From Candidatus Omnitrophota bacterium (lineage in GTDB: Bacteria; Omnitrophota; Gorgyraeia; 2-01-FULL-45-10), in NCBI GenBank assembly GCA_903843285.1, contig CAIMPC010000010.1:968-64967 (forward strand): DNA of 64,000 nt, in the 5' to 3' direction. The notes beneath the pieces were generated by a model. It ran no database searches. It had not been told where the DNA came from and worked only from the letters and a program-made list of their open reading frames with translations. Below are positions 5,943 through 41,715 of the stretch, piece after piece (positions within the stretch are counted from its first letter, which is position 1; every line of letters begins with the position of its first letter). Both the position numbers and the translations under genes were made by a program.

Positions 5943-7382
5943 ATGAAATATAAACATGCTCTATTTTTAAACCCTTATATCGAAAACACAGCGACAAGCG
6001 TCATGGGGTTATTTCCGCCCACAGGCCTTGAGTATGTGGCCACCAGCGCCGAAGGCTTCGTGGATAAAATAACGCTTCTCGACCTGCGATATGAAACGGA
6101 TCTGCGCGATACCGGAAAACTGATCGATTTTATACTTAAGGAGATCGACATCATATGTGTCAGCGTAGGATGGGATCGCCAGTATGAAGAGATTTGTAAA
6201 TTATTGAACCTACTACCGGATAACATACCTTTAGTGGTGGGCGGATATAAAGCTACGGTGGAAGTCGATGAGCTATTTCGCGCGGTGCCAAAAATAGATA
6301 TTATCATCAGGGGAGAGGGTGAAGAGACGATAAAAGAGGTATTAAAAGGTGTGCCGTATGAAAATATTCTGGGCATCTCATACCGAAACGGCCGGGAGAT
6401 AATCCATAATGCCAATAGGCCGTTACCCGATGTAGATGTCATAGGCTCACCGGATCGGTCCTTAAGGAGAAATAAGTATTTCATGAGGGTAAACGGTATC
6501 GGCGTGGCAGACCTGACGTTCGATTCGGTCTTAAGCGCCAGAGGCTGTCCTTTTAACTGCAAATTTTGCACGTTTAATTTAAATCCGCTGGGCCAAAAGA
6601 GGGATTATGCGGCGCGTGGCGTAGAATCCGTCGTAACCGAGATAGGCCAGATCCGTGCCAACACCATATTGTTTAGTGACGACAACTTTTTTACGGACGT
6701 AAAACGATCGGAAGAGATTTGCGACCTGATAATCGCGCGCAAAATAAAAAAGCGCTTCCTGGCGCAGGCTCGTATCGACATTGCCAAGCACCCGAGGCTT
6801 CTGGAGAAAATGGTGAAGGCGGGATTTAAGATGCTATTCATCGGCATAGAATCTCCGCATGACCGCATACTGGCCGAACTCAATAAGGGTTTTGATTCGG
6901 CTGAGATAAGAAAATGTTTTGCTGTATTGAATAGATACCCCATCTATTGTCACGGCTATTTTATTTACGGTAACATCGGCGAGGTCGAAAGCGAAATGCT
7001 ATATATAGCGAAGTTCGCAAAAGAGATAGGCGTCGATTCCATAACGTTCCAGAAGCTAAGGATAGAGAAATTCTCGCCGCTCAGAAAGATCGCTGAAAAT
7101 ACGCCCGGTTATCACGTTACTTCCAGGGGCGAACTTTATTCGGATACCTATAGCCATGCGGCTCTTAAAAAAATAGGCAGACAGATCAAATTTTCATTCT
7201 ATACACCGCTTCAGATAGTAAAAATACTCAGGAAATTCGCCGTAGTGAGGTTCTTTACCATTAAAGAGATCTTCGTATTCATGATGGCCGGACCGAGCCT
7301 GTTATGGAGTGTATTGGCGCGGGAGGTGAAGAAAAAACGTCTTGGCGACTCTCTGAAGCGCATATTTGTAAAAAATGCGTAA
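5943..7382 (+). CDS. B12-binding domain radical SAM protein
   Basis: Rossmann-like cobalamin-binding N-domain (IICVSVGWDRQ...PLVVGGYKAT) followed by a radical SAM CxxxCxxC motif (RGCPFNCKFCTF). Confidence 0.8.
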   Translation: MKYKHALFLNPYIENTATSVMGLFPPTGLEYVATSAEGFVDKITLLDLRYETDLRDTGKLIDFILKEIDIICVSVGWDRQYEEICKLLNLLPDNIPLVVGGYKATVEVDELFRAVPKIDIIIRGEGEETIKEVLKGVPYENILGISYRNGREIIHNANRPLPDVDVIGSPDRSLRRNKYFMRVNGIGVADLTFDSVLSARGCPFNCKFCTFNLNPLGQKRDYAARGVESVVTEIGQIRANTILFSDDNFFTDVKRSEEICDLIIARKIKKRFLAQARIDIAKHPRLLEKMVKAGFKMLFIGIESPHDRILAELNKGFDSAEIRKCFAVLNRYPIYCHGYFIYGNIGEVESEMLYIAKFAKEIGVDSITFQKLRIEKFSPLRKIAENTPGYHVTSRGELYSDTYSHAALKKIGRQIKFSFYTPLQIVKILRKFAVVRFFTIKEIFVFMMAGPSLLWSVLAREVKKKRLGDSLKRIFVKNA

Positions 7383-8381: not shown

Positions 8382-9554
8382 ATGATACGAAAGACAATGT
8401 TTTTACTCATCGCTGTCATTTCGATAGTATATTCTGACTCCTGGGCTATTTCCTGGCAGAACGATATGACGCTTGCAATCGAAAAGGCTAAGAGCGAAGG
8501 TAAACCGGTAATGGCCGACTTCTACACCTCCTGGTGCGGATGGTGTAAAAAACTCGATAAAGATGTTTACGAAGACCCCGAGGTGAATACGCTCTCCGAA
8601 AGGTTTGTATGCGTGAAAGTGGATTGCGGCATACATAAGGACGCATCCATTAAATATGGGGTAAGAGGATACCCTACGATCGTATTCTTTAATTCCGACG
8701 GTGGTGTAGAGGAAACAGTTGTCGGGTATAGAGGGGCGCAGGCTTTTGCTGAAATCATGAAAAAAGTTATTTACAAGATTCCGAAGCCGGAAATCAGGCA
8801 GGTTCAGTCTGCCAATGAGCCTGTTATTAAGAAGCATATCACCGAAGGCGAATTTGAGCTTACGGGCATAATGGGCTCTAAGGCTATCATAAATGACGTA
8901 ACGGTATCGGTTGGAGATAACATTAATGGCGCGAAGATCATTGAAATTACCAGCGAGCGCGTTAGGCTGTTGTATAAAGATAAAGAGATCACATTGAGTT
9001 TAGCTGGATCATCAGGCACCGACTCGCACCGTTCCATGGATATCGTAGCGCGGGAGGCCGCATCTTATGATGATCGTGAAAAACGTTTTAAGGGATATAG
9101 TGAGTGGATAAAAGAGACTGCCGGTAACAAGTCTAAAGTTAACGAAAAAGGCGAGGTTGCTATAAAGCGTGACCCGCAATCGCATAGCGTCCTTGTCGAA
9201 GCCGTTTTAAATGATGGGACAAAGGCAATCCTTATTGTCGATACGGGTGCCGATATGGTAGTATTATCAAAGAGGATCGGAGAAAAGTTAGGCGTCGATG
9301 TATCTACGGACACGGGTAATGACATTGCCGAGATGCGCCTTGCCGGAGGAAAATCGGCCAAGGTAAGGATGACGATTCTAAAGAGGGTGAGCATTGAGGC
9401 TGTAGAGGAGAAAGACGTGAAGGCGGCCGTGTTACTCGAAGATGAAGACGGAAGCGGGTTTAAAGATGGTCTCCTGGGAAGATCTTTTTTAAACAGGTAT
9501 AATATCAGTATAGACTTACAAAAAATGAAGATGCTGATGGAGAAGATAAAGTAG
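8382..9554 (+). CDS. secreted thioredoxin-like domain fused to retropepsin-like (clan AA) aspartic protease
   Basis: Signal peptide, then a thioredoxin fold with WCGWC. C-terminal region has ILIVDTGADMVVLS and LLGRSFL, typical of bacterial retropepsin-like proteases. Confidence 0.7.
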   Translation: MIRKTMFLLIAVISIVYSDSWAISWQNDMTLAIEKAKSEGKPVMADFYTSWCGWCKKLDKDVYEDPEVNTLSERFVCVKVDCGIHKDASIKYGVRGYPTIVFFNSDGGVEETVVGYRGAQAFAEIMKKVIYKIPKPEIRQVQSANEPVIKKHITEGEFELTGIMGSKAIINDVTVSVGDNINGAKIIEITSERVRLLYKDKEITLSLAGSSGTDSHRSMDIVAREAASYDDREKRFKGYSEWIKETAGNKSKVNEKGEVAIKRDPQSHSVLVEAVLNDGTKAILIVDTGADMVVLSKRIGEKLGVDVSTDTGNDIAEMRLAGGKSAKVRMTILKRVSIEAVEEKDVKAAVLLEDEDGSGFKDGLLGRSFLNRYNISIDLQKMKMLMEKIK

Positions 9555-19688: not shown

Positions 19689-20852
19689 ATGTCTAAAATT
19701 AGAGTTGCGATAATCGGTGTCGGCAATTGCGCCTCATCGCTTGTGCAGGGCGTTGAATATTATAAGAATGCAAAGGACGGTGATTTCATTCCGGGATTGA
19801 TGCATGCTAACCTGGGTGGATATCGCATAAGTGATATTGAATTTTCTGCCGCCTTTGACATAGATAAGAATAAAGTGGGTAAGGACCTGAGCGAGGCCAT
19901 ATACACCAAACCAAACAATACCAAGGTGTTTGCGAAGGTGCCTTTTCTCGGCGTGAAGGTCCATCGTGGGATGACGCATGACAGCCTCGGAAAATATCTA
20001 TCGAAGGTGATCACCAAGGCTTCCGGCAAGACTGACGATGTAGCCGGGATATTGAAGAAGACTAAGACGGATGTAGTTATTAACTATCTTCCGGTCGGAT
20101 CGGAAGAAGCTACTAAGTGGTATGTCGAGCAGATTCTGAATGCCGGATGCGCGTTTGTTAATTGTATTCCCGTTTTCATTGCCCGCGAAGAATATTGGCA
20201 AAAACGTTTTAAGGATAGAGGCCTGCCTATAATAGGCGATGATATTAAATCTCAGGTTGGAGCTACCATACTTCATAGAGTCCTGACGAACTTGTTTCTG
20301 GATAGAGGGATGCCGGTAGTCCATACCTATCAGCTAAACACCGGAGGAAACACAGACTTTCTTAATATGAAGGAAGAAGAGCGATTGGTCTCGAAAAAGA
20401 TATCTAAGACAAACGCCGTGGTCTCCCAGATACAAAATAGGGGCCTCAGCATCGACAAGGAAAACGTGCATATCGGCCCTAGCGACTACGTTCCATGGCA
20501 GAAGGATAATAAGATCTGTTTCCTGCGCATAGAGAGCAAGCATTTCGGAGATGTGCCAATGAACCTGGAATGCCGGCTATCGGTAGAGGACTCGCCTAAC
20601 TCGGCCGGCGTGGTGGTGGATGCTATAAGGTTGATTAAGATAGCCCTCGATAACGGCATCTCGGGAGTCCTCCTGGGGCCGAGCGCATATCTTAAAAAAT
20701 CTCCCCCGGTACAATATGACGATAACGTCGCCCAGAAGATGGTGGAAGATTTTATCGCAACCTACGGATGGAAAAAGGGATTGGGAAATAAGAAGGCGCG
20801 TTCATGGAAATTTAATTCTAAGAACAAAAAGCGCTCTAAGAATCGATCTTAA
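19689..20852 (+). CDS. ino1: myo-inositol-1-phosphate synthase (MIPS, archaeal/bacterial short type)
   Basis: N-terminal NAD-binding [17 protein letters not shown] and conserved MIPS blocks ([28 protein letters not shown]). Lys-rich C-terminal tail. GGGG RBS. TAGTATAAT -10-like box at ~19631. Confidence 0.8.
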
Positions 20853-20853
20853 G

Positions 20854-21435
20854 ATGGCCGATCCGTTAGGTAAAACTATCCGTTTCATGGCACGATATCC
20901 GGGACGTCTCCTGGCAAAATCTAAGATATCTCCAAATCAAATAACGGTTTTCGGTTTGTTAATAAACTGTGCCGTCGCTTATTTTATAGCTTCGGGGCGT
21001 ATTAATTATTTAGCCTCCGGTATGCTCATATGGGCGGCCGGTTTCTTTGATGCGCTGGACGGCAGTGTGGCTCGGATAAACGGGCAGGTTACAGTTTTTG
21101 GCGACTTTCTGGATTCGGTCCTGGATAGATATTCGGACTCGGTCATATATTTAGGCATAATGGTATATTTCTTAAGAGCGGGAAGATCGGATTGTGTAAT
21201 ATTGGCCGTTATCGCGACCATCGGGTCGTTGGCTGTAAGTTACGTCAGGGCTAAGGCAGAGAGCCTGGGCCGGAAGTGCGAAGTGGGACTACTGCCGCGC
21301 ACCGCGCGCATAGTTATACTGGGGCTATCATTCTGCGTATCCCAGCCATTTTGGGGTCTTTTGATAATCGCAGTGCTCTCAAACCTGACGGTTCTGCAGA
21401 GAATCATCTATGTACGAAAAAACATCTCAGAATAA
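20854..21435 (+). CDS. CDP-alcohol phosphatidyltransferase (phosphatidylinositol-phosphate / archaetidylinositol-phosphate synthase-like)
   Basis: The CDP-OH transferase signature DG(x)2AR(x)8G(x)3D(x)3D is present as DALDGSVARINGQVTVFGDFLDSVLDRYSD. Start taken at MADPLG, 1 nt after the MIPS stop; the ORF-track start at 20716 overlaps MIPS. Confidence 0.75.
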   Translation: MADPLGKTIRFMARYPGRLLAKSKISPNQITVFGLLINCAVAYFIASGRINYLASGMLIWAAGFFDALDGSVARINGQVTVFGDFLDSVLDRYSDSVIYLGIMVYFLRAGRSDCVILAVIATIGSLAVSYVRAKAESLGRKCEVGLLPRTARIVILGLSFCVSQPFWGLLIIAVLSNLTVLQRIIYVRKNISE

Positions 21436-21441
21436 ACGACT

Positions 21442-22020
21442 ATGAAACTGATATTCTCCTGTCTTTGGTATCTTCTCCCCGCCGCGCTGGGGAATCACAA
21501 TGCCTCATGCGGTAACCGCCTTTGGATTCCGGGAATATTTAAACGCGCATTAGCTAAGATGGCCGTGCCGATCGATGGCGGCAATAAGTGGCGTGGCAGA
21601 GAGATATTAGGGAAGAATAAGACGTGGAGAGGGCTTTTGGTCGGCAGTATAACCGGAGTTCTGGTCGCTCTCGCTCAGGCGCTCTTATATTTCAATTTTG
21701 ATTTCTTCAGGCAGAATACATTCATCGATTATGGAAAAATAAACTTTGCGGTATTCGGATTTCTGATGGGCGGCGGCGCCCTGGTCGGCGATGTGGTGAA
21801 GAGCCTTATAAAGCGGATGCTCGATAAGCCGTCCGGTAAACCGTGGTTCCCGTGGGACCAGCTCGACTGGATAATGGGCGCTATGATCCTAAGTTCATTG
21901 GTCTACATTCCATCGGCCAAATCGGCCGTGGTCACAGCGATATTATATGTTGGAGTTCACCTTTGTTCCGACAGAGCAGTGGTTAAGATGGGCATCAAGA
22001 CCAGGAAGGAAGTTAATTAA
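21442..22020 (+). CDS. small membrane CTP-transferase-family protein (CDP-archaeol synthase CarS-like / CdsA-like)
   Basis: 192 aa, polytopic, with GKNKTWRG resembling the K(T/S)WEG box of CTP_transf_1/CarS and a C-terminal GDVVKSLIKR segment. Confidence 0.5.
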   Translation: MKLIFSCLWYLLPAALGNHNASCGNRLWIPGIFKRALAKMAVPIDGGNKWRGREILGKNKTWRGLLVGSITGVLVALAQALLYFNFDFFRQNTFIDYGKINFAVFGFLMGGGALVGDVVKSLIKRMLDKPSGKPWFPWDQLDWIMGAMILSSLVYIPSAKSAVVTAILYVGVHLCSDRAVVKMGIKTRKEVN

Positions 22021-22025
22021 GAGAG

Positions 22026-22757
22026 ATGTTTGGACTCCTCCACAGCGTGGTATTCTGGATATTAGCCTTAGTCTATAGCGTCATCATAGGTATGTACTCA
22101 AACGTCGCGGGACTATTTATTAAAGATGCCGGTAAGAAGGAAGCGTTTTACCGCGCCAACGCGAAATTATGGGGGCGCCTTCTGATGAATGCATCGCTTA
22201 TAAAAGTGAATATAGATGGGCTTGAAAATATCCCGCCCGATACAAACGTAATATATACACCTAATCACCAGAGTTACATCGACATATTTATTCTGCTTAA
22301 GTACCTGCCGGGCACCTATAAATTTGTAATAATGAGAAAATTATTTAAGGTCCCTGTGATCGGTAGTCATATAGCGCGCTCAGGATATATATCTTTGGAC
22401 CGGAAAGACAGAAAGAGATCGGTTAAGACGATTCATGCCATTATAGATGATCTTGCCGCCGGTGAGTCGTTCGTAATATTTCCTGAGGGGAAGTTGACGC
22501 CCGATGGTGAGATAGGGCAGTTTAGCCGGGGGGCATCTATAATTATTCAGCGCAGTAGAAAGCCCGTGGTTCCGATAGCGATCGATGGAACATTCGAGGC
22601 CATGCCTAAGGGGGCGTGGCGGATTAAACGAACGGCGGTTAAGGTAAAGATCGGTAGGCCTATCATCTTTGATGAACATTTCGGGGATATGGACAAGGAT
22701 GGTTCTTACAAGCTCGGCCAGCGGCTTCGTGAAATAGTCGTCGATCTCAAAGGGTAG
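22026..22757 (+). CDS. lysophospholipid acyltransferase (PlsC family)
   Basis: HX4D motif NHQSYIDIF and FPEGKLT motif. N-terminal TM segment. Confidence 0.8.
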   Translation: MFGLLHSVVFWILALVYSVIIGMYSNVAGLFIKDAGKKEAFYRANAKLWGRLLMNASLIKVNIDGLENIPPDTNVIYTPNHQSYIDIFILLKYLPGTYKFVIMRKLFKVPVIGSHIARSGYISLDRKDRKRSVKTIHAIIDDLAAGESFVIFPEGKLTPDGEIGQFSRGASIIIQRSRKPVVPIAIDGTFEAMPKGAWRIKRTAVKVKIGRPIIFDEHFGDMDKDGSYKLGQRLREIVVDLKG

Positions 22758-22772
22758 GGATAAAACAGTACC

Positions 22773-23504
22773 ATGTGGAATAGAACAGCCAGGATAATAC
22801 ATTCTACGATATGGTGGGCAAATTGGATATTGATATTGCTATTGGGCCTGATATTTGATTCCGTCATCTGGCCCGGCAATAGAAAGATGTACAGGAAGAG
22901 CGAATATTTCTGGGCCTGGACGCTCATGAAGATAGGCGGCATAAAATTAAAGATAACCGGAGGGCATAATTTACCTGAGAATGAGACGGTTGTCTACATG
23001 GCAAATCACCAAAGCGATCTGGACTGGCCGATTATATTTATGGCGGTTCCGGGATATTACCTGTTTTTGGCTAAGAAGGAGTTATTCGATGTTCCGGTCT
23101 TCGGAACATACATGAAGCTTCAGAATTACATTCCGATTGAGAGGACAAGCCTCAGGAGATCGCTGAGGACTTACGATAAGGTGGCAGATCTTATTAAGAA
23201 GGGCAATTCGATCGTTATCTATCCGGAGGGCACACGTTCCCGGGACAGGGATCTGCAGAAATTTAAATCTTTCAGCTTCTCATTCCTTCAGGAGGCAAGA
23301 GTCAGGGTCGTCCCGATAGCTATTGATGGCAGTATAAATATTCAAAAGAAGGGAAGCGGGCTTATAAGTCCGGGAGAGGTGAGCGTAAATATTTTACCCC
23401 CCATAAGTTTCGATGATATATATGATCTGGAGGCTAAGGATTTCTGCCGGAAGGCATCGGATAGAGTAAGGGAGTCATTGCTTAAAATTTTAAAGAAAAT
23501 ATAG
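22773..23504 (+). CDS. lysophospholipid acyltransferase (PlsC family), second copy
   Basis: NHQSDLDWPII (HX4D) and YPEGTRS. Confidence 0.8.
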   Translation: MWNRTARIIHSTIWWANWILILLLGLIFDSVIWPGNRKMYRKSEYFWAWTLMKIGGIKLKITGGHNLPENETVVYMANHQSDLDWPIIFMAVPGYYLFLAKKELFDVPVFGTYMKLQNYIPIERTSLRRSLRTYDKVADLIKKGNSIVIYPEGTRSRDRDLQKFKSFSFSFLQEARVRVVPIAIDGSINIQKKGSGLISPGEVSVNILPPISFDDIYDLEAKDFCRKASDRVRESLLKILKKI

Positions 23505-23511
23505 GAGAATC

Positions 23512-23922
23512 GTGATAGGAAGATTATTTAAAGAGACCTCCGACACGGTGCATGTGCAGGTCTTCCGTTATATTTTAGCAGGTACTGCGGCATACGCACT
23601 TGACTACAGCGCGCTGGTCGTCTTTACGGAAATAATAGGGTTATATTATCTGACGTCCGCAGCATTGGCATTTCTGTTGGGTGCCATTGCAAGTTACATT
23701 ATGAATGTAACGTGGGTATTTAATGATAGGGCATTTAAGAACAGGCGACTGGAGTTCACCATATTTATATCAATAAGCATAGCGGGGCTATTTTTAAACC
23801 ACTACTGCATCAAATTTTTCACAGAGAGCGTTAATATGCACTACCTGACATCGAAACTCATATCTTCCGTCTTAGTCTCTGCGGTCAATTTTTCCGCGAG
23901 AAAATATATACTGTTCAGGTAA
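23512..23922 (+). CDS. GtrA-family membrane protein (polyisoprenoid-linked sugar translocase-like)
   Basis: 136 aa, four predicted TM helices. N-terminal FRYILAGTAAYALDYSALVVF is typical of GtrA-like proteins. Confidence 0.65.
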   Translation: MIGRLFKETSDTVHVQVFRYILAGTAAYALDYSALVVFTEIIGLYYLTSAALAFLLGAIASYIMNVTWVFNDRAFKNRRLEFTIFISISIAGLFLNHYCIKFFTESVNMHYLTSKLISSVLVSAVNFSARKYILFR

Positions 23923-23941: not shown

Positions 23942-23970
23942 TTGACATACCATAATCGTTCATATAGAAT
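23942..23970 (+). promoter_or_regulatory. sigma70-like promoter TTGACA-17-TAGAAT
   Basis: TTGACA at 23942-23947, a 17-nt spacer, then TAGAAT at 23965-23970. Lies about 50 nt upstream of the 24020 operon, whose first gene has a GGAGG RBS. Confidence 0.45.
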
Positions 23971-24019: not shown

Positions 24020-24400
24020 ATGTCGGGATTTGGTGCTGGAGAACTCATATGGCTGGTAGTGGCGGTCCTTTTGGCGTTGGGAGTGGTTATAACCTGGATA
24101 ATGAAGGCCGAATCGAGCCGTAATGTGTTTCGGGCAGAAGTTAATAGACTTAAATCGCAACTTGATGAGCTTGAACGCGAAAAGATGGCCATGGTGGAAG
24201 AGGTTGAGGCATTTAAAGACTTCATGGATTCGTCTTCGGTTACACCAGGCCAGTCAGGAGCTTCCTCCGGAAATGCGATAGTGGCCAAGATGGCCGAGAA
24301 GGTCGGTGAGCTCGGGAAAGAGAACGAGAGACTTAAGAAGGATCTCAATGAAGCCAGAAGCTCCCTGGAAGAAGTTTATAAAGCGATGTGCAGTAAATAA
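24020..24400 (+). CDS. small TM + coiled-coil protein (126 aa)
   Basis: TM helix LIWLVVAVLLALGVVITWIM, then heptad-rich sequence. First gene of the ParA-associated operon. Confidence 0.5.
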   Translation: MSGFGAGELIWLVVAVLLALGVVITWIMKAESSRNVFRAEVNRLKSQLDELEREKMAMVEEVEAFKDFMDSSSVTPGQSGASSGNAIVAKMAEKVGELGKENERLKKDLNEARSSLEEVYKAMCSK

Positions 24401-24403
24401 TGT

Positions 24404-26623
24404 TTGAGTACTAAGGATAATCGTATGAACGAAATATTCGATAAGATGAAAAAGACGGATGTGGTAGGCGCCTCTGGTACGGTAAAAGAGGGCGTGTGTA
24501 TGGATATAAGCGATATGAAGAGACAGATCCTCGAGAGGCTGAGGGAGAAGAAGGCCTTGGCCTCTGTATCAACCGAAACCCTTAGACCATCAGTGAATAA
24601 AGAGGATCTGCTAAAGGCCGTTAATAAAGGCGAGACATCTACGGTCGTAGTGGAAAAGATCGTGGAAAAAATTGTTGTAAAGCAGGACGAGGAGGTTGTG
24701 AGACAGCGGGATTCGCTTAAGACAGAGCTTGCCGATAAGGAGGCTGTCCTTCAGGATATACGGAAAAAATTTGCCGAGGCTAAACAGACATTGTCGGTCC
24801 AGGAAGGTGTTTTAAGAGCCAGGGATAGCGCCTCTTCCGATGCCCCCAGGATATTGCGCGAACTCGATGCGGCAAGGAAGAAAGCCTCCGATCTTCAGAC
24901 ACGGGCCGAAACTCTCCAGGTTGAGCATAAGAAGATGTCCACCGAACGAGATGAGGCTCTTAAGCAGTTCGAAAAGATGCGCAGAGATTTCGAATCAAAA
25001 GATAGGGCCACACAGGATCTCGATAGACGGCTTAAGGAGGAGCGGGACAGATCCTCTTCGATGAATGAACAGCTTAAGTCCAGGGATAAGGGGATAGCCG
25101 AGGCACAGAAGATAGCCAGAGAGCTCGATGTGGCTAAGAAGGCCACAGAGACAGAGCATGCCAAATACGAGAATCTCACTATTGAACACAGGAAGGCATT
25201 ATCTGACAGAGACGAATCGGCAAAACTTCTTAAAATACTGAGAGCGGAAGATGATAAGAGGGAGAGGTTGATCAGCGACCTGCAGAAGAAGGTTGCCAGG
25301 ACGAGCGAGCTTGAGGCCGCCCTGCGCATAAGGGATACCAGAGCAAGTGAGATCGATAAATTATCTAAAGAGCTGAGCTCTTCCAGGAATTTATGCGAGG
25401 AATACCGCTTGAAGTTCGAGGATGTGCAGGCTGAAATTAAGCGGCTCATCGCAATGCAGGCCGAAGCGGCGGGCCATCACGGCAAGCTTAAAGATGAATT
25501 TGCCGCCAGGGAAGCGTCTTTACGACAGGAGCAGAAAAAGCTTACGATAGAATTGGACGAAGCGATTAAGGATCGCGATAGGGTTACATCTAATGTAGAG
25601 TCGCTCAGATCTAAGCTGTATACTGTGACCAAAGAGACTAAAGAGCAATCTTCCAGGATCACGACCCTGGAAGAGTCATTGAGAGGAAAAGATAAGAAGA
25701 TTCAGGAGCTCGAAAAGCTGAACACCGATATAGCGGCATCGAAGACAGCCGTAGAATCAAAGTTGATTGCAGTCGGGGGCGAGCATAAAGCCCTCAGTGA
25801 AAATCATGCGAGGCTTAACGATGAATTGGCCGGCGCCAGAACTAAGATCGCAGAGATTGATAAATCTCGTAAAGAGATAGAGGTATCCCTCGGCGAAAAA
25901 GATCTTCAGTTGCAAGCGAGCCTGCGTGACAAGAAGGAGCTCGAAGCTAAACTGGGACAGATACGTCTGGAGCTGGAGGCGAAGGCCGGCCGAATGTCCC
26001 AGGCCGATAAGTTATATAAGGAGCTGGAGGCCGCGGCGCAGGACATGACTTCCAAGCTACAGGTAAGTCAGCGGGATGCCAAGGAGCTCGAGGCTTCTAA
26101 GGGTGATCTCACATTACAGCTATCGAATGTTCATCGGGACAAGAGAGACCTGGAGATGCGGATCTCCGAATTAGGAATGGAGATAGAGGCGAAGTCCATA
26201 CGGCTGGAGGATGCGGATAAGCTTTATAAAGAGACAGAGACGCTATTGAGCGACCTTGCGTCTAAACTTCAGGTAAGCCAGCGCAGGACGGAAGCCTTAG
26301 AAAAAGAGGTCTCCGGCCTTACAGAGTCGCTTAAGAGCACAACGCATAAACTGAAAGAGACCGAAGACCTCTCGAAGAGCGAGATTGAAAGGTTAAGTTC
26401 TGAGCTTGCCCTGGCAAAGGGCACCGTGAAGGATAAAGAAAGAAAAGAGCTTGAACTGAGAAACACGGTCGAGCATCTCGAGACCGAGATACAGGTAAGG
26501 GACGAAAAGATCGAAGGAGATATCAGGTATACTGACAAGGTTGTGAAGGAGGTCGGGGAGCTTCGTAAAAAAATGGCATCCCTGGATCGCCATAGCGACA
26601 GGACTAAGAGTGCAGGCGCTTAA
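24404..26623 (+). CDS. long coiled-coil protein (739 aa) with internal ~70-aa sequence repeats
   Basis: Almost entirely E/K/R/L/A heptad-like sequence. Repeated blocks DKLYKELEAAAQDMTSKLQVSQRDAKELEA and DKLYKETETLLSDLASKLQVSQRRTEALE. Its stop overlaps the ParA start. Confidence 0.7.
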   Translation: MSTKDNRMNEIFDKMKKTDVVGASGTVKEGVCMDISDMKRQILERLREKKALASVSTETLRPSVNKEDLLKAVNKGETSTVVVEKIVEKIVVKQDEEVVRQRDSLKTELADKEAVLQDIRKKFAEAKQTLSVQEGVLRARDSASSDAPRILRELDAARKKASDLQTRAETLQVEHKKMSTERDEALKQFEKMRRDFESKDRATQDLDRRLKEERDRSSSMNEQLKSRDKGIAEAQKIARELDVAKKATETEHAKYENLTIEHRKALSDRDESAKLLKILRAEDDKRERLISDLQKKVARTSELEAALRIRDTRASEIDKLSKELSSSRNLCEEYRLKFEDVQAEIKRLIAMQAEAAGHHGKLKDEFAAREASLRQEQKKLTIELDEAIKDRDRVTSNVESLRSKLYTVTKETKEQSSRITTLEESLRGKDKKIQELEKLNTDIAASKTAVESKLIAVGGEHKALSENHARLNDELAGARTKIAEIDKSRKEIEVSLGEKDLQLQASLRDKKELEAKLGQIRLELEAKAGRMSQADKLYKELEAAAQDMTSKLQVSQRDAKELEASKGDLTLQLSNVHRDKRDLEMRISELGMEIEAKSIRLEDADKLYKETETLLSDLASKLQVSQRRTEALEKEVSGLTESLKSTTHKLKETEDLSKSEIERLSSELALAKGTVKDKERKELELRNTVEHLETEIQVRDEKIEGDIRYTDKVVKEVGELRKKMASLDRHSDRTKSAGA

Positions 26624-27446
26624 TGATAGAGTAGAGAAGATGTTCGGATGGCTTAGAACCCAGGGCGCCACCGCCATAAAAGGGAAGACCGCCAGAAAAC
26701 AGCTCTTTCTGAACTATAAGGGCGGAACCGGAAAGACCTCTATATCTGCCGCATATGGATACTATCTGGCAATGACGGGTAAGCGGGTGCTTATGATAGA
26801 TCTGGATGCGCAGGCGCATCTGACCACATGCTTTAATCACGAAACCGTCAGACATGAAAAGAGCCTGTATAGCGTACTGATACGTTCCGCGCGCTTGTCG
26901 GAGGTCATCGTCGGAACGTCTCTTCCCACATTAAAACTGGCCCCATCGTCGATATCTCTCTCAGCCCTCGAGATGCCTTTATTTAAAATGCCATACAGAG
27001 AATTCAGATTGCGCCGCGCCCTGCGAGAGGTCGAGGGAGATTTCGATTTCATAATAATAGATTCGGCTCCAAATATAGGCCTTGTAAGCCTTAATGCGAT
27101 ACTCGCTTCAGACGAGATATTAGTGCCGCTACTGGCGGATTTCCTGTCATTCCACGGGCTTAAGATATTGATGGAGACCATATCGTCGGTCCAATCAGAT
27201 TTCAATTTCTATTTCAAGAAGATCAATATTTTCCTGAACAAGTTTAATCCGGAATACTCTATATGTAGAGAGTGCCTCGAAGCCGTCCGTAAACACTACC
27301 CAAGCTATGCGCTTAAGACCGTAATTAAAGAGTCGCACGAAATAATGGATGCAACCAGCGTGGGTAAATCGATATTTGAGTTCAGCCCTGATTCAAAGGC
27401 CGCGCAGGATATTAAAGACCTGGTGAAGGAAGTCAACGGTATTTGA
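26610..27446 (+). CDS. ParA/MinD-family P-loop ATPase (orphan ParA-like)
   Basis: Deviant Walker A NYKGGTGKTS. Also has LMIDLDAQAHLT, FIIIDSAPNIG and a ParA-like C-terminal helix. Start may be the GTG at 26610 or the ATG at 26640. Confidence 0.8.
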   Translation: MQALNDRVEKMFGWLRTQGATAIKGKTARKQLFLNYKGGTGKTSISAAYGYYLAMTGKRVLMIDLDAQAHLTTCFNHETVRHEKSLYSVLIRSARLSEVIVGTSLPTLKLAPSSISLSALEMPLFKMPYREFRLRRALREVEGDFDFIIIDSAPNIGLVSLNAILASDEILVPLLADFLSFHGLKILMETISSVQSDFNFYFKKINIFLNKFNPEYSICRECLEAVRKHYPSYALKTVIKESHEIMDATSVGKSIFEFSPDSKAAQDIKDLVKEVNGI

Positions 27447-27485
27447 TAAATAAGAAGGCTCATCCCGAGCTTAAGGAGGATTTAC

Positions 27486-27938
27486 ATGAAGACCAAGTTC
27501 GACGAAAATGTAGCGCATGATATACCTGTTACAAAAAATTCATCCGAACCCGAGCTTCCGTGGAAATTATCCGAATCTGAGCTTACAAAGCTAGAGGCCG
27601 CCGAGGAGGGTTTAAAAGATGCGGTATCCGCGCCTCCGCTTCACGTCAGAGCAATATTTGTGGTACTGCTTGTAGCCACTATATTCGTTGTTATATTGAA
27701 TAACATGGTTAATATGGCTATAGACAATAATCGTATGCAGATCGATATATCTAAAAAAGAGAAGCAGGTATCTACGGTTCAGACCCAACTGGCTACCGTT
27801 AAGAATGAAAAAGAGGCCCTGACTGATAATGCCTCGAAGATGGAGAAGCGCATAAATGACCTGAGCGCCCAGAAAGAGCTCTACAGCGCTGTCATTGAGA
27901 CGCTGACGAAGAAGACGGACGACGCCCCGGGTAGTTAA
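27486..27938 (+). CDS. small TM + coiled-coil protein (150 aa)
   Basis: Single TM helix AIFVVLLVATIFVVIL followed by a coiled-coil (FtsB/FtsL-like architecture). AGGAGG RBS. Confidence 0.5.
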   Translation: MKTKFDENVAHDIPVTKNSSEPELPWKLSESELTKLEAAEEGLKDAVSAPPLHVRAIFVVLLVATIFVVILNNMVNMAIDNNRMQIDISKKEKQVSTVQTQLATVKNEKEALTDNASKMEKRINDLSAQKELYSAVIETLTKKTDDAPGS

Positions 27939-27944
27939 AGAGAG

Positions 27945-30557
27945 ATGAAGAAATCGATATTTATGCCATTCATTAGACATGCGGTGCTTGTAGTAGCGTT
28001 AGTTTTATTGCCCTCGGCGGTATCCTGCCAAAACCTTTCATGGGAAGACCTGAGCAAGCAGTCGTGGGAATTAAACAAACAGGGTAACTTCTCCGGAGCC
28101 ATCAGCACGGCCAAAAAAGCGCTCGAAGCGGCTACGGAACAATTTGGCCCAAAACATGCAAATGTGGTGATATCCCTTAACTCCATAGCGGCCATGTACA
28201 AAACCCATGAGAAGTATAAGGAATCGGAAGCCTACTATAAGAAGGCGCTTGCTATGCGGACTCTCTCAATAAGCTGTCCCGTTATAAAACAGGATTACCT
28301 GGACATATACACGGCGATGAAAAACCTCTATTCCGTATACAAGATTCAAAATAAATTACCTCAGGCCGGAAAAGTATTGAGACGCGCGTTAACTATTGAA
28401 GAAAAAGTGACGGGGAAAGATTCTCCGGAAGTAGAGAGAGACATCAGAGACCTGATCTCCATATATGAGGCCCAGGACAAACCTCAGCGGACGGAGCCAT
28501 TATATAAGAGGATTATAGAGATCGAAGAGAAGCGCCATGGGCCAAACAGCGCTGAGGTGGCCAATACCATGAATAGCCTCGCCGCCGCATATCGGTCGAT
28601 GAAACGATATGATGAGGCCGAGCCGCTATTAAAGAAGATAATAACCCTGGCCGAAAGCACGCATGGCGCCCAGGATGGCACTTTACCGACATTTCTGAAT
28701 AATCTGGGTACCGTACACTTCTACCGGGGGAAATATCAGGAGGCCGAGGAGCTATTTAAGAGAGCGCTGGCTATGGATGAAAAGATGTTCGGGGTAAATA
28801 GTCCCGAGATTGTCACCGATCTTAATAATCTCGCGACACTGTATTCTTATGAAAAGAGATATCAGGAGGCCGAGGAGCGCTACCATAGGGTGCTGGATAT
28901 AAATGAAAAGTCATTCGGACCCGAAAGCGTTAATTCTATAAAGTATATGAATAATCTTGCGGCTATATTTGCATATCAGCGAAAGTATAATGATGCAGAG
29001 AGCCTTTACAACAGAGTGATAGCTATAAGCGAGAAAGCGTATGGGCCGGATCATCCGGCTATGGCATCCGCTCTTAATAATCTGGCGTTTCTATACCAAA
29101 AACAGGCCGATTATGCAAGAGCCGAACAGCTCTATTTACGCTCCGCGCTGATATGCGAGAAGGATCTGGATAAAAATTATTCTATAATGAAGACCGCTAT
29201 AAATAACCTGGTAGCCATATACAGGATTCAGGACAGGCAGGCCGAAACGGCACAGGCGCTAAAAAGATTGATAGATATGAGCGATAACGCAAAAAAAAAA
29301 GAAAACCCTGACTCGATCCCCGCACTAAAAGATCTTATAACGATATATACCACCCAGAATAATTTTAAGATGATGGAGGAAGTGTACCTCAGGCTGATCC
29401 TGGTGGAGGAGAATGTATTCGGCACCGATAGCGCGGAGCTGGCCGATACTATGAATAAGTTGGCCGGCATTTATAGATCCCAGCGAAAGTTATCGCAGGC
29501 CGAGCCGCTCTTAAAAAGAGTGGTTCAGATAGCGGAGAGCGTAGACGGCCTGTACAGCACAAGCCTTTCCAGCTACCTCAATAATTTAGGGGTCCTATAT
29601 TTTTATCAGGGAAAGTTTACAGAGGCCGAGCCGCTCCTAAGAAAAGCGCTTACCATAGACGAGAAAGCGCTGGGAAAGAATGATCCGGGGATAGTAGAAG
29701 ATCTGAATAATCTTGCCGTAGTCTATTCGTTCCTTAAGAAGTATAAGGAAGCAGAGATCCTTTATGGTCGTGTTATAGGGATATCTTCGAAGGTATCCGG
29801 CGAGGATAGCTTAGCGGCGATATCGGCGACCAACAAGCTGGCGTACGTCTACGAGTCGGAAGAAAAATATGAAGAGGCGGCAAAGCTTTACACCAAGGTT
29901 ATAGAGATATGCGCTAAGGATGAGGCCAAGAACTATCCTGAGCTCAGGATTTCGCTAAACAGCCTCGCTAATATTTACAGCGGTATGGGTAAGCATGAAG
30001 AGGCTGAGCCATACCTTAAGAGGGCGCTCGCTCTCGAGGAGAAGATTGCCGGTAAAGGCAGTATGGATTATGCCGAGACGCTGAACTATTTGGCCAGGAT
30101 CTACAGGGCCCAGGGGCGATATTCGGAGGCGGAGGCGGCATTAAAGCAAGTTATAGAAACCGGGGAAAAGATGATCGGTTCAGATAACCCGGTGATGAGG
30201 CCATATTTGGATAATCTGGCTACAGTATATTTTTATCAGAAAAGATATGAAGAAGCCCAGCCGCTTATGGAAAAGATATTGAGTATAGATGAAAAGATTG
30301 GTGGGAAGGAGAATCCTGAGCTGGTAAAAGATTTGAATAATCTGGCTACGTTATATTCAAAGTTAAATAGACTCGAGGATGCAGAGTTGTTATATTCCCG
30401 AGCCGCATACCTATGCCAAAACTTTAGCAGTGATCCTAAGGAACTCGCAAATATTCTCGAAAATATGGCAAACATGTACGAAATGGTAAATAATTCTGAA
30501 AGAGCCGAAAATTTACGTTTGCAAGCAGAATCAATTCGTAAACCAGCCAAGCCTTGA
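27945..30557 (+). CDS. tetratricopeptide-repeat protein (TPR_12 / kinesin-light-chain-type repeats), secreted or lipoprotein
   Basis: Signal peptide with possible lipobox (LLPSAVSC). About 17 tandem ~42-aa units of form NNLAxLYxxxGxYxEAEPLxKRALxIxEKxxG. Confidence 0.85.
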   Translation: MKKSIFMPFIRHAVLVVALVLLPSAVSCQNLSWEDLSKQSWELNKQGNFSGAISTAKKALEAATEQFGPKHANVVISLNSIAAMYKTHEKYKESEAYYKKALAMRTLSISCPVIKQDYLDIYTAMKNLYSVYKIQNKLPQAGKVLRRALTIEEKVTGKDSPEVERDIRDLISIYEAQDKPQRTEPLYKRIIEIEEKRHGPNSAEVANTMNSLAAAYRSMKRYDEAEPLLKKIITLAESTHGAQDGTLPTFLNNLGTVHFYRGKYQEAEELFKRALAMDEKMFGVNSPEIVTDLNNLATLYSYEKRYQEAEERYHRVLDINEKSFGPESVNSIKYMNNLAAIFAYQRKYNDAESLYNRVIAISEKAYGPDHPAMASALNNLAFLYQKQADYARAEQLYLRSALICEKDLDKNYSIMKTAINNLVAIYRIQDRQAETAQALKRLIDMSDNAKKKENPDSIPALKDLITIYTTQNNFKMMEEVYLRLILVEENVFGTDSAELADTMNKLAGIYRSQRKLSQAEPLLKRVVQIAESVDGLYSTSLSSYLNNLGVLYFYQGKFTEAEPLLRKALTIDEKALGKNDPGIVEDLNNLAVVYSFLKKYKEAEILYGRVIGISSKVSGEDSLAAISATNKLAYVYESEEKYEEAAKLYTKVIEICAKDEAKNYPELRISLNSLANIYSGMGKHEEAEPYLKRALALEEKIAGKGSMDYAETLNYLARIYRAQGRYSEAEAALKQVIETGEKMIGSDNPVMRPYLDNLATVYFYQKRYEEAQPLMEKILSIDEKIGGKENPELVKDLNNLATLYSKLNRLEDAELLYSRAAYLCQNFSSDPKELANILENMANMYEMVNNSERAENLRLQAESIRKPAKP

Positions 30558-41647: not shown

Positions 41648-41715
41648 CCACCTAATACAATAGAAAGTTAGTAGCGATATTAACCATGTTCGCAAAATAT
41701 TCCCAAGGAGAAAAC

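What the first reader, a model, noticed from the sequence alone, without database searches (positions are those of the whole stretch)
19689..23922. Inositol-phospholipid biosynthesis cluster with an archaeal-type CarS-like CTP transferase, two acyltransferases and a GtrA-like flippase
The sequence shows MIPS (ino1-type) immediately followed, after a 1-nt gap, by a CDP-alcohol phosphatidyltransferase carrying the full D-G-x2-A-R...G-x3-D-x3-D signature. This is the MIPS + PIP-synthase pair that makes phosphatidylinositol phosphate in mycobacteria and Bacteroidetes, and archaetidylinositol phosphate in archaea. Next comes a 192-aa membrane protein whose GKNKTWRG box resembles the CTP-transferase motif of CdsA/CarS; a CarS-like enzyme is unusual in a bacterium. 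Then come two PlsC-family acyltransferases (cf. the PatA-type acyltransferase in the mycobacterial pgsA1 operon) and a GtrA-like small translocase. No PIP phosphatase is present in the cluster; a divergent-PAP2 gene sits at 62796 and a third PlsC at 56283. The MIPS also has an unusual Lys-rich C-terminal tail.
Basis: partly seen in the sequence, partly recalled or inferred. Interest (0 to 1): 0.6.

Follow-up and report, generated by a model that had tools for sequence, protein, structure and literature searches.

The report
Omnitrophota inositol-lipid operon with CarS-type enzyme
A tightly packed six-gene operon in an uncultured Omnitrophota bacterium appears to encode a self-contained route to an inositol phospholipid, and it activates the lipid with an enzyme type known from archaea rather than the usual bacterial one.

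Summary
Six + strand genes at 19689-23922, separated by 1-15 nt, encode an inositol-3-phosphate synthase (MIPS), a CDP-alcohol phosphatidyltransferase of the inositol-phosphate-using clade, a CarS-family CTP transferase, two PlsC-type acyltransferases and a GtrA-like membrane protein.

The CarS-like ORF hits Pfam CarS-like, and its model matches only the Aeropyrum CarS structure. The transferase scores highest as archaetidylinositol-phosphate or PIP synthase, far above PgsA, and keeps every inositol-phosphate pocket residue.

The gene order recurs in all 12 related Omnitrophota loci, which have unrelated flanks. The next relatives of the CarS-like protein (30-44% identity) are in CPR/Patescibacteria and DPANN archaea. 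There it also sits beside CDP-alcohol transferases, often with a PHP phosphoesterase and sometimes a DAG-kinase-like gene.

Best reading: acyltransferases make phosphatidic acid, CarS-like converts it to CDP-diacylglycerol, and the transferase adds MIPS-derived inositol phosphate to give PIP. The PIP phosphatase is not in the window.

Function is inferred and has no biochemical support. I could not check whether the genome also has cdsA or ether-lipid genes. I rate it a new variant of a known pathway, of moderate interest.

The parts
19689..20852 (+). myo-inositol-3-phosphate synthase (MIPS, 387 aa). The catalytic core is residues 1-356. A polybasic K/R-rich C-terminal tail covers residues 357-387 (nt 20757-20849).
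   Evidence: PF01658 at 124.7 bits. 418 bits to M. tuberculosis Ino1 1GR0 over residues 3-356. A K/R-rich tail of variable length and sequence is present in all 12 Omnitrophota-clade orthologues and absent from two CPR orthologues.
20854..21435 (+). CDP-alcohol phosphatidyltransferase of the inositol-phosphate-using clade (PIP/AIP-synthase-like, 193 aa)
   Evidence: PF01066 at 63.1 bits. NCBIfam best hits are AIP synthase 162.8 (cutoff 180), PIP synthase 127.9 and PgsA 35.2. Best solved relative is Renibacterium PIPS 5D92, 76 bits. The D66xxDGxxARx8GxxxDxxxD91 motif is complete. The equivalents of MtPgsA1 R94/S132/K135/R137/R152/R155/R195 are R92/S129/R132/K134/R149/R152/R183.
21442..22020 (+). 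CarS-family integral-membrane CTP transferase (192 aa), the proposed CDP-diacylglycerol synthase of the operon
   Evidence: PF01864 at 89.8 bits and weak PF01148 at 26.5 bits. NF003114 at 110 bits, cutoff 148. phmmer to 5GUF gives E 2e-8. AF2 model pLDDT is 91.8, and the sole significant Foldseek PDB hit is 5GUF (TM 0.62/0.74). Invariant residues K60 T61 R63 G64, D117, S121, K124 R125, P137, D139 Q140 are shared with CPR/DPANN relatives.
22026..22757 (+). PlsC-family acyltransferase a (243 aa, N-terminal TM anchor, NHQSYID = HX4D, FPEGK)
   Evidence: PF01553 at 96.3 bits. Best NCBIfam hit is the acyltransferase domain of Aas-type acyl-ACP:phospholipid acyltransferase, 86.9 bits. TIGR00530 scores 78.5, below its cutoff.
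22773..23504 (+). PlsC-family acyltransferase b (243 aa, NHQSDLD = HX4D, YPEGTRS), LPAAT-like
   Evidence: PF01553 at 110.9 bits. TIGR00530 (1-acylglycerol-3-phosphate O-acyltransferase) scores 104.8, above its cutoff of 102.95.
23512..23922 (+). GtrA-like small polytopic membrane protein (136 aa, GTG start)
   Evidence: PF04138 at 74.9 bits, full length. Present in 8 of 12 related loci; in the other four the contig ends before reaching it. A GtrA-motif gene (BT_1524) also lies in the B. thetaiotaomicron inositol-lipid cluster (PMC9246714).
50680..51438 (+). Secreted ~250-aa all-beta protein (weak DUF3108). It is a position-variable seventh member of the cluster in relatives and is displaced 27 kb downstream in this window.
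   Evidence: Orthologues lie between PlsC-b and GtrA (L004, L012), directly after GtrA (L009, L010, L014) or directly before MIPS (L003). AF2 pLDDT is 89.6. Fold hits to LprG, YmcC and LolA are only weak.
23942..23970 (+). Promoter-like site (TTGACA-17-TAGAAT, 11/12 matches) marking the start of the next transcription unit, and so the 3' boundary of the operon
   Evidence: This is a consensus match only.

Best explanation
This is a conserved operon of one Omnitrophota lineage that makes an inositol glycerophospholipid by the prokaryotic 'PIP synthase' route, and it brings its own lipid-activation step.

Proposed steps:
1. MIPS converts glucose-6-phosphate to inositol-3-phosphate. Its polybasic tail plausibly holds it at the anionic membrane surface.
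2. The two PlsC-type acyltransferases build or re-acylate phosphatidic acid. PlsC-b is LPAAT-like. PlsC-a resembles the Aas-type lysophospholipid acyltransferase domain.
3. The CarS-family CTP transferase converts that phosphatidic acid and CTP into CDP-diacylglycerol, which is the job CdsA normally does in bacteria.
4. The AIP/PIP-synthase-like transferase condenses CDP-diacylglycerol with inositol phosphate to give phosphatidylinositol phosphate.
5. A phosphatase encoded elsewhere gives PI.
6. The GtrA-like protein and the linked secreted beta-protein act downstream, in translocation, export or further decoration.

What is shown: family membership, catalytic motifs, fold and conserved gene order. 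What is inferred: substrates, order of steps and the fate of the product.
For: - Family, motif and fold assignments for all six genes.
- The transferase keeps the whole inositol-phosphate phosphate pocket described for MtPgsA1 (PMC6506517) and is fused in operon with MIPS across a 1-nt gap.
- The six-gene order is conserved in 12 of 12 related loci with unrelated flanks.
- Across the next relatives, a CDP-alcohol transferase lies within 3 kb of the CarS-like gene in 26 of 44 CPR-like loci and 17 of 31 DPANN loci. This fits a producer and consumer of a CDP-activated lipid.
- In CPR bacteria that transferase is again AIP-synthase-like (89-160 bits). It is joined by MIPS in L044 and L067, by a DAGK_cat/YegS-type lipid kinase directly upstream of CarS-like in L044, L063 and L054, and by two PlsC genes in L053. 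In bacteria, therefore, the enzyme sits next to genes that make ordinary phosphatidic acid.
- The window has no GGGP synthase, UbiA-type DGGGP synthase or G1P dehydrogenase gene.
- The MIPS + PIPS + GtrA combination is experimentally tied to PI synthesis in B. thetaiotaomicron (PMC9246714).
Against: - There is no biochemical evidence for any CarS-family enzyme using diacyl phosphatidic acid.
- Canonical CarS prefers DGGGP, and A. fulgidus CarS does not complement an E. coli cdsA mutant (review PMC9385802).
- The CarS-like protein and the transferase both fall below NCBIfam equivalog cutoffs (110 < 148; 162.8 < 180), so exact specificity cannot be transferred by homology.
- No PIP phosphatase (PgpA, PHP, HAD) is in the operon or the window.
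- Only 64 kb of the genome was seen, so a canonical cdsA, ether-lipid genes or isoprenoid-lipid genes elsewhere cannot be excluded. Many Omnitrophota MAGs carry ElbD (alkyl-ether lipid) homologues (PMC11868695), so the real substrate could be ether-linked.
- The roles of the two acyltransferases, GtrA and the secreted protein are guesses from family and context.
Confidence: 0.62

Rival explanations
1. The operon makes an archaeal-type or ether inositol lipid. CarS-like and the AIP-synthase-like transferase act on isoprenoid or alkyl-ether glycerol phosphates, made by the cell or taken from archaeal prey or hosts, giving an archaetidylinositol-like lipid and a mixed membrane.
For: Both enzymes score best against the archaeal equivalogs, CDP-archaeol synthase and archaetidylinositol-phosphate synthase. 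The only structural match is archaeal CarS. DPANN archaeal sequences are interleaved with the bacterial ones in the tree. ElbD homologues are common in Omnitrophota MAGs (PMC11868695).
Against: Two acyltransferases are conserved inside the operon (11 of 12 loci). There are no GGGPS, DGGGPS or G1PDH genes in the window. In CPR bacteria the same enzyme sits next to DAG-kinase-like and PlsC genes. The scores are below the equivalog cutoffs. The Omnitrophota clade is a separate long branch, recovered in 200 of 200 bootstraps and not nested among archaeal sequences.
Confidence: 0.12
2. The operon is a salvage and remodelling module, not a de novo pathway. The acyltransferases re-acylate lysolipids or glycerolipids scavenged from other cells, and CarS-like plus the transferase re-head them as inositol lipids. 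This would match a host-dependent lifestyle shared with CPR and DPANN.
For: The CarS-like subfamily is concentrated in CPR and DPANN, which are reduced-genome lineages. PlsC-a resembles the Aas lysophospholipid acyltransferase domain. CPR loci pair CarS-like with a DAG-kinase-type lipid kinase, which would recycle DAG.
Against: The window encodes a normal-looking Gram-negative gene set (TolC, AcrB, MacB, TonB-like, Mur-type ligase, L,D-transpeptidase) and a separate third PlsC. Nothing in the window speaks to fatty-acid synthesis either way. This reading overlaps the best explanation and differs only in where the lipid backbone comes from.
Confidence: 0.15
3. The CarS-like protein is not a cytidylyltransferase. 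It would be a CTP-dependent lipid kinase (dolichol-, phytol- or polyprenol-kinase-like members of the same CTP-transferase superfamily) working with GtrA on a polyprenyl-phosphate carrier.
For: It gives a weak hit to PF01148 CTP_transf_1 (26.5 bits). From my own knowledge, that superfamily also contains CTP-dependent polyprenol kinases. GtrA proteins are usually linked to polyprenyl-phosphate sugar handling.
Against: The CarS family hit is much stronger, and the CarS motifs are conserved. A CDP-alcohol transferase needs a CDP-activated donor, and its persistent adjacency to the CarS-like gene across CPR, DPANN and Omnitrophota is what a cytidylyltransferase predicts. CPR loci already carry a separate lipid kinase next to it.
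Confidence: 0.05
4. The cluster makes a soluble inositol solute (di-myo-inositol phosphate) and not a lipid.
For: MIPS plus a CDP-alcohol transferase is also the core of DIP synthesis. The transferase gives a weak hit to the DIPP synthase model (54.9 bits).
Against: There is no inositol-phosphate cytidylyltransferase domain. The DIPPS score is far below the PIPS and AIPS scores and the cutoff of 580. Solved DIPPS gives 36 bits against 76 for PIPS. The CarS-like enzyme and the acyltransferases are lipid enzymes.
Confidence: 0.02

Closest known systems
Archaeal CDP-archaeol synthase CarS (Aeropyrum pernix ApCarS, PDB 5GUF; A. fulgidus CarS)
   Same: Same Pfam family (PF01864). Same size of about 180-190 aa. 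Same predicted five-TM fold with two cytoplasmic loops (Foldseek TM 0.62/0.74). Same conserved boxes: G-x-x-K-T-x-x-G, G-D-x3-S-x2-K-R and D-Q-x-D.
   Different: About 29% identity and below the NCBIfam equivalog cutoff (110 < 148). It has a clade-specific insertion of about 8-9 residues after TM1. The host is bacterial, and the gene sits in an operon with acyltransferases and not with prenyltransferases. The lipid substrate is therefore probably diacyl-PA, which is untested.
Actinobacterial PI pathway (Ino1 MIPS + PgsA1 PIP synthase + unidentified PIP phosphatase)
   Same: MIPS is highly similar to M. tuberculosis Ino1 (418 bits, full length). The transferase shares the catalytic motif and all inositol-phosphate pocket residues with MtPgsA1 and Renibacterium PIPS. 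As in that pathway, the phosphatase is not in the cluster.
   Different: The transferase scores higher against the archaeal AIP synthase model than against the bacterial PIPS model. The operon carries its own CTP transferase of CarS type and PlsC-type acyltransferases. There is no PimA-type glycosyltransferase or HtrB-type PatA (the family assignment of PatA is from my own knowledge).
Bacteroides thetaiotaomicron inositol-lipid cluster BT_1522-BT_1526 (PMC9246714)
   Same: It combines MIPS, a PIP synthase and a GtrA-motif membrane protein in one cluster.
   Different: There is no PgpA-like PIP phosphatase (BT_1525) and no IPC synthase (BT_1522). It adds CarS-like and two PlsC genes. The transferase scores 124.9 bits against a cutoff of 350 for the BT_1523 model.
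CPR/Patescibacteria and DPANN 'transferase-PHP-CarS-like' neighbourhoods
   Same: Same CarS-like subfamily (30-44% identity). In CPR it has the same AIP-synthase-like partner, sometimes with MIPS (L044, L067) or two PlsC genes (L053).
   Different: Those loci usually carry a PHP-family phosphoesterase and sometimes a DAGK/YegS lipid kinase. Both are absent from the Omnitrophota operon. The operon instead has fixed MIPS, two PlsC genes, GtrA and the DUF3108-like protein.
Bacterial CDP-diacylglycerol synthase CdsA (T. maritima TmCdsA)
   Same: The proposed reaction is the same (CTP + phosphatidate gives CDP-DAG + PPi). It is the same CTP-transferase superfamily, with a shared S-x2-K-R ... D-x2-D type catalytic core (weak PF01148 hit; PMC7018664).
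   Different: CdsA has nine TM helices with a dimerisation domain and shares about 12% identity with CarS (PMC7018664). This protein has the short five-TM CarS architecture. TmCdsA did not appear among the Foldseek hits.

Membership tests
CarS / CDP-archaeol synthase (PF01864, NF003114) | Sequence match to the family profile | tested here: met
   PF01864 scores 89.8 bits against a gathering score of 22, covering 171 of 175 profile positions.
CarS / CDP-archaeol synthase (PF01864, NF003114) | Equivalog-level match (same function as characterised CarS) | tested here: not met
   NF003114 scores 110 bits against a curated cutoff of 148. CPR relatives score 118-138, also below the cutoff.
CarS / CDP-archaeol synthase (PF01864, NF003114) | Five-TM CarS fold with cytoplasmic loops forming the CTP cavity | tested here: met
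   AF2 model pLDDT is 91.8. Its only significant Foldseek PDB hit is 5GUF: E 1e-4, probability 1.00, TM 0.62/0.74.
CarS / CDP-archaeol synthase (PF01864, NF003114) | Conserved catalytic boxes (GxxKTxxG; GDxxxSxxKR; DQxD) | tested here: met
   Aligned to ApCarS. K60, T61, R63, G64, D117, S121, K124, R125, P137, D139 and Q140 are invariant across 30 sequences.
CarS / CDP-archaeol synthase (PF01864, NF003114) | Substrate DGGGP, and co-occurrence with GGGPS, DGGGPS and G1P dehydrogenase | tested here: inconclusive
   None of these genes is in the 64-kb window. The rest of the genome could not be examined, and enzyme specificity cannot be tested here.
PIP / AIP synthase (inositol-phosphate-dependent CDP-alcohol phosphatidyltransferase) | CDP-alcohol phosphotransferase signature D1xxD2GxxAR...GxxxD3xxxD4 | tested here: met
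   D66, D69, G70, A73, R74, G83, D87 and D91 are present. PF01066 scores 63.1 bits.
PIP / AIP synthase (inositol-phosphate-dependent CDP-alcohol phosphatidyltransferase) | Basic pocket binding the phosphate of inositol phosphate (MtPgsA1 R94, S132, K135, R137, R152, R155, R195) | tested here: met
   The equivalents are R92, S129, R132, K134, R149, R152 and R183, from the phmmer alignment to 6H53. The residue list is from PMC6506517. Two positions are conservative K/R swaps.
PIP / AIP synthase (inositol-phosphate-dependent CDP-alcohol phosphatidyltransferase) | Closer to inositol-phosphate users than to PgsA, PssA or DIPPS | tested here: met
   AIPS 162.8, PIPS 127.9, BT_1523-type 124.9, DIPPS 54.9, PgsA 35.2, PssA 26.8 bits. 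In the PDB: PIPS 76, DIPPS 36, PssA 23 bits.
PIP / AIP synthase (inositol-phosphate-dependent CDP-alcohol phosphatidyltransferase) | Equivalog-level score for AIPS or PIPS | tested here: not met
   162.8 < 180 for AIPS and 127.9 < 170 for PIPS. The orthologues in L001, L003 and L004 behave the same way.
PIP / AIP synthase (inositol-phosphate-dependent CDP-alcohol phosphatidyltransferase) | Genomic coupling to MIPS | tested here: met
   The gap to MIPS is 1 nt. MIPS is adjacent in 11 of 12 related loci, and the twelfth is a contig end.
myo-inositol-3-phosphate synthase | Full-length similarity to a characterised MIPS, including the NAD-binding N-terminus | tested here: met
   418 bits to M. tuberculosis Ino1 (1GR0), residues 3-356 against 15-365, with the [12 protein letters not shown] motif conserved. 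PF01658 scores 124.7 bits. TIGR03450 scores 475.6, below its lineage-specific cutoff of 638.
PlsC / LPAAT acyltransferases (PF01553) | HX4D and (F/Y)PEG motifs, and family profile match | tested here: met
   PlsC-a has NHQSYID and FPEGK. PlsC-b has NHQSDLD and YPEGTRS. PF01553 scores 96.3 and 110.9 bits. TIGR00530 is passed by PlsC-b (104.8 against 102.95) but not by PlsC-a (78.5).
GtrA family (PF04138) | Full-length profile match for a ~130-aa four-TM protein | tested here: met
   74.9 bits, covering profile positions 1-117 of 117. No NCBIfam model matches.
Bacteroides-type inositol-lipid cluster (BT_1522-1526) | PgpA-like PIP phosphatase and IPC synthase in the cluster | tested here: not met
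   No PgpA, PAP2-type IPC synthase, PHP or HAD gene is in the operon. A Pfam scan of nearly all window ORFs found none, apart from the distant DUF212 at 62796.
Mycobacterial pgsA1-patA-pimA operon | HtrB-type PIM acyltransferase and GT-B mannosyltransferase next to the PIP synthase | tested here: not met
   The neighbours are PF01553 acyltransferases, and no glycosyltransferase is present. The family assignment of PatA comes from my own knowledge and was not tested.

The most novel reading that the evidence does not exclude
The CarS-like/CDP-alcohol-transferase pair is a lipid-activation module shared across domains by DPANN archaea, CPR bacteria and this Omnitrophota lineage. It would be indifferent to chain type. 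In these bacteria it would replace CdsA, not supplement it, letting small or host-associated cells turn any diradylglycerol phosphate (self-made, bacterial or archaeal) into inositol lipids. As a corollary, the PHP phosphoesterase that accompanies it in CPR and DPANN would be the long-sought PIP/AIP (and PGP) phosphatase.
Probability: 0.2. Interest if true: 0.8.

Novelty: new variant of a known kind. Interest (0 to 1): 0.55.

Why it matters
CarS and CdsA are treated as enzymes that help keep the archaeal and bacterial lipid pathways apart.

In this conserved bacterial operon, a CarS-family enzyme sits between an inositol-phosphate-dependent head-group transferase and two fatty-acyl transferases. 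That gives a concrete case for testing whether the CarS fold can serve ordinary bacterial phospholipid synthesis.

It also extends inositol-lipid synthesis to an uncultured PVC-group phylum. It links that lineage's lipid genes to those of CPR and DPANN.

The comparison points to candidate genes for two unknowns. One is the prokaryotic PIP phosphatase, possibly the PHP protein seen in CPR and DPANN. The other is a secreted partner protein specific to this lineage.

Tried and rejected
- **Literature:** ten full-text searches found no paper linking CarS or CDP-archaeol synthase with Omnitrophota or CPR. Villanueva et al. 2020 state that Cloacimonetes lack CarS. Subscription journals are not covered, so this does not prove the link is unpublished.
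- **Candidate PIP phosphatases in the window:** the His_Phos_1 gene next to the third PlsC is GpmA (437.8 bits). The HD-domain protein resembles c-di-GMP phosphodiesterase regulators. DUF212 (divergent PAP2) is 39 kb away and has no linkage. No PgpA, PHP or HAD gene was found.
- **CdsA:** a PROSITE-like CdsA signature scan over the window plus 87 loci found nothing. That sample is too small to say anything about whole genomes, and no tool allowed whole-genome inspection.
- **Rfam and tRNA scans:** both were empty.
- **Origin of the CarS-like gene:** the Omnitrophota clade is recovered in 200 of 200 NJ bootstraps, but its sister group (CPR or DPANN) is unresolved. A first Biopython bootstrap timed out.
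- **Terminator and promoter scans:** they gave no more sites than shuffled controls, apart from the strong promoter-like site after GtrA.
- **B12-binding radical SAM gene at 5943-7382:** it matches no specific family above cutoff, so no link to membrane-spanning or ether lipid synthesis can be claimed.

Full report
**What is there**

The region 19689-23922 holds six + strand ORFs separated by 1, 6, 5, 15 and 7 nt. All pass Pfam gathering thresholds:
- Inos-1-P_synth, 124.7 bits
- CDP-OH_P_transf, 63.1 bits
- CarS-like, 89.8 bits, plus a weak CTP_transf_1 hit of 26.5 bits
- two Acyltransferase/PlsC, 96.3 and 110.9 bits
- GtrA_DPMS_TM, 74.9 bits

A 110-nt gap precedes MIPS. A strong promoter-like site (TTGACA-17-TAGAAT) at 23942-23970 follows the GtrA stop, so the unit ends there.

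Every gene in the 64-kb window is on the + strand. Base composition of the operon is unremarkable.

**The organism**

Homologues of the CarS-like protein with a source name are all from Candidatus Omnitrophota/Omnitrophica MAGs, at 60-86% identity. Genome hits include Ca. Tantalella remota, in the PVC group.

The rest of the window is bacterial. It encodes TolC-, HlyD-, MacB- and AcrB-type efflux components, a TonB-C protein, BipA, MnmE, FolE, PurH, a Mur-type ligase and a LysM/YkuD L,D-transpeptidase.

**The individual enzymes**

*MIPS* aligns over its whole core with M. tuberculosis Ino1 (418 bits, residues 3-356). Residues 357-387 are a K/R-rich extension. A polybasic tail of different length and sequence is present in all 12 orthologues of the clade. 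It is absent from two CPR orthologues. I infer that it tethers the enzyme to the membrane.

*The transferase* has the full D66xxD69G70xxA73R74x8G83xxxD87xxxD91 signature.
- Its NCBIfam scores are archaetidylinositol-phosphate synthase 162.8 (cutoff 180), PIP synthase 127.9, BT_1523-type 124.9, DIPP synthase 54.9 and PgsA 35.2.
- Its best solved relative is Renibacterium PIP synthase (76 bits; DIPPS 36; PssA 23).
- Aligned to M. tuberculosis PgsA1, it keeps every residue of the inositol-phosphate phosphate pocket named in PMC6506517. R94, S132, K135, R137, R152, R155 and R195 correspond to R92, S129, R132, K134, R149, R152 and R183.

*The CarS-like protein*:
- Its only NCBIfam hit is CDP-archaeol synthase, at 110 bits against a cutoff of 148.
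- It matches ApCarS 5GUF by sequence at E 2e-8, with the GxxKTxxG, GDxxxSxxKR and DQxD boxes aligned.
- It gives a confident AlphaFold model (pLDDT 91.8). That model's single significant PDB match is 5GUF (TM 0.62/0.74).

*The acyltransferases.* PlsC-b passes the LPAAT subfamily model TIGR00530. PlsC-a does not, and its best hit is the Aas-type acyltransferase domain. Both have HX4D and (F/Y)PEG motifs.

**Conservation and relatives**

The order MIPS, transferase, CarS-like, PlsC, PlsC, then GtrA recurs in every related locus, as far as each contig reaches. That is 12 of 12 for the transferase, 11 of 12 for MIPS and for both PlsC genes, and 8 of 12 for GtrA. The flanks are unrelated.

A secreted ~250-aa all-beta protein with a weak DUF3108 hit is a seventh member whose position varies.
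- It lies between PlsC-b and GtrA in L004 and L012, directly after GtrA in L009, L010 and L014, and directly before MIPS in L003.
- In this window its orthologue is displaced to 50680-51438.
- Its family of 83 proteins is restricted to this lineage, judging by the members that carry a source name. At least 12 appear to lie on the same contigs as CarS-like genes, judged by matching contig lengths.
- Its model is confident (pLDDT 89.6), but fold matches to LprG, YmcC and LolA-type lipid binders are weak.

An exhaustive HMMER scan found 1342 relatives of the CarS-like protein, but only 3 below E 1e-30. The clade is therefore well separated from the rest of the family.

In one genome per species, the high-identity clade (at least 67% identity) appeared in 8 loci from 7 assemblies. 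The next 72 loci, at 30-44% identity, are CPR/Patescibacteria and DPANN archaea (Woesearchaeota, Nanoarchaeota). Several TPA records carry placeholder taxon names.

A neighbour-joining tree recovers the Omnitrophota clade in 200 of 200 bootstraps. It does not resolve whether CPR or DPANN is its sister, and those two groups are interleaved.

**What the relatives' neighbourhoods say**

A CDP-alcohol transferase lies within 3 kb of the CarS-like gene in 26 of 44 CPR-like loci and 17 of 31 DPANN loci.

In CPR that partner is again AIP-synthase-like (89-160 bits). In DPANN examples it is PgsA- or PssA-like.

Many CPR and DPANN loci add a PHP-family phosphoesterase 0-1 kb from the CarS-like gene. 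L044, L063 and L054 have a DAGK_cat/YegS-type lipid kinase close by (13-186 bp away). L044 and L067 add MIPS, and L053 adds two PlsC genes.

In bacteria, then, the CarS-like enzyme is embedded among genes that make phosphatidic acid from diacylglycerol or lysolipids and that consume a CDP-activated lipid. This is the main support for reading it as a CDP-diacylglycerol synthase here.

**Mechanism proposed**

1. MIPS supplies inositol-3-phosphate.
2. The two acyltransferases supply phosphatidic acid.
3. CarS-like makes CDP-diacylglycerol.
4. The transferase makes phosphatidylinositol phosphate.
5. An unlinked phosphatase yields PI.
6. GtrA and the secreted beta-protein act on the product.

A GtrA-motif gene, BT_1524, sits in the B. 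thetaiotaomicron inositol-lipid cluster alongside the genes there shown experimentally to be needed for PI synthesis (PMC9246714).

Only family membership, motifs, fold and synteny are shown. Substrates and products are inferred.

**Caveats**

- Characterised CarS enzymes prefer DGGGP, and A. fulgidus CarS does not complement an E. coli cdsA mutant (PMC9385802).
- Both key enzymes fall below equivalog cutoffs.
- No PIP phosphatase was found in the window.
- I could not inspect the rest of the genome for cdsA, ether-lipid genes or isoprenoid-lipid genes.
- ElbD homologues are reported in 93 of 267 Black Sea Omnitrophota MAGs (PMC11868695), so an ether-linked substrate remains possible.

**Comparison and novelty**

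The cluster works like the actinobacterial and Bacteroides PIP-synthase route to PI. It differs in three ways:
- It uses a CarS-fold CTP transferase.
- Its transferase is nearer to the archaeal AIP synthase model.
- It carries dedicated PlsC acyltransferases.

Sequence databases already label these proteins 'CDP-archaeol synthase'. Ten full-text searches found no paper discussing them in Omnitrophota or CPR.

I rate it a new variant of a known kind, with interest about 0.55.

Noticed in passing
L007 6402-7064; L044 6434-7099; L053 9253-9921; L067 1756-2523; also L022, L041, L046, L047, L056, L061, L063, L072, L076, L081, L082, L084 (CPR) and L024, L027, L030, L039, L043, L058, L069, L070, L080 (DPANN): A ~220-aa PHP-family phosphoesterase (PF02811 + PF13263) lies 0-1 kb from the CarS-like gene and its CDP-alcohol transferase in many CPR and DPANN loci. 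It is a candidate for the unidentified PIP/AIP (or PGP) phosphatase. It is absent from the window and from all Omnitrophota-clade loci.
   Followed up: partly
L044 7096-8001; L063 6889-7803; L054 5826-6725; L006 6019-6948: DAGK_cat/YegS-type lipid kinase genes lie close to the CarS-like gene in several CPR loci (13-186 bp away in L044, L063 and L054; 618 bp in L006). This suggests a DAG to PA to CDP-DAG salvage line.
   Followed up: partly
L005 7190-10608 (the same layout is inferred for L021 and L016): In some CPR genomes the CarS-like gene is inserted between nusG and rplK, and a CDP-alcohol transferase between rplK and rplA, inside the conserved secE-nusG-rplKA cluster.
   Followed up: no
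window 50680-51438 (orthologues at L004 12003-12779, L012 3403-4167, L009 10514-11278, L010 10527-11288, L014 10417-11250, L003 7331-7996): A lineage-restricted secreted all-beta protein (weak DUF3108) is physically linked to the operon in relatives but displaced 27 kb in this window. Its model gives only weak LprG, YmcC and LolA-like fold matches.
   Followed up: yes
window 41686-47400: A 1904-aa ORF directly after two AcrB-type transporter genes has no Pfam or NCBIfam match at all.
   Followed up: no
window 24020-30557: Downstream of the operon lie a small TM/coiled-coil protein, a 739-aa coiled-coil protein with no Pfam hit, a ParA/MinD-like ATPase, a 150-aa coiled-coil protein and an 870-aa TPR protein. 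This may be a cytoskeletal or positioning module.
   Followed up: no
window 5943-7382: A B12-binding radical SAM protein (479 aa) has only sub-threshold similarity to HpnJ, BchE and HpnR and to a 'lipid biosynthesis B12/radical SAM' model. This could bear on reports of membrane-spanning and ether lipid genes in Omnitrophota, but nothing specific was shown.
   Followed up: partly
window 1-64000: All of the roughly 45 genes are on the + strand, and GC skew is positive in every 2-kb bin. This is an unusually long co-directional stretch.
   Followed up: no
window 8382-9554: One ORF fuses an N-terminal thioredoxin-like domain to a C-terminal retropepsin-like aspartyl protease domain.
   Followed up: no
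window 56283-57868: The third PlsC-type acyltransferase (TIGR00530 96.4 bits, just under cutoff) lies next to a bona fide gpmA (NF010713 437.8 bits). The histidine-phosphatase-fold neighbour is therefore glycolytic and not a lipid phosphatase.
   Followed up: yes
L008, L010, L012-L016, L019, L024-L026 and others (record titles): TPA 'binchicken' and SRP co-assembly MAG records carry coarse placeholder names (uncultured Planctomycetia, Gammaproteobacteria, Methanosarcinales). Their gene content instead looks like Omnitrophota, CPR and DPANN respectively, so these titles should not be used for taxonomy.
   Followed up: partly
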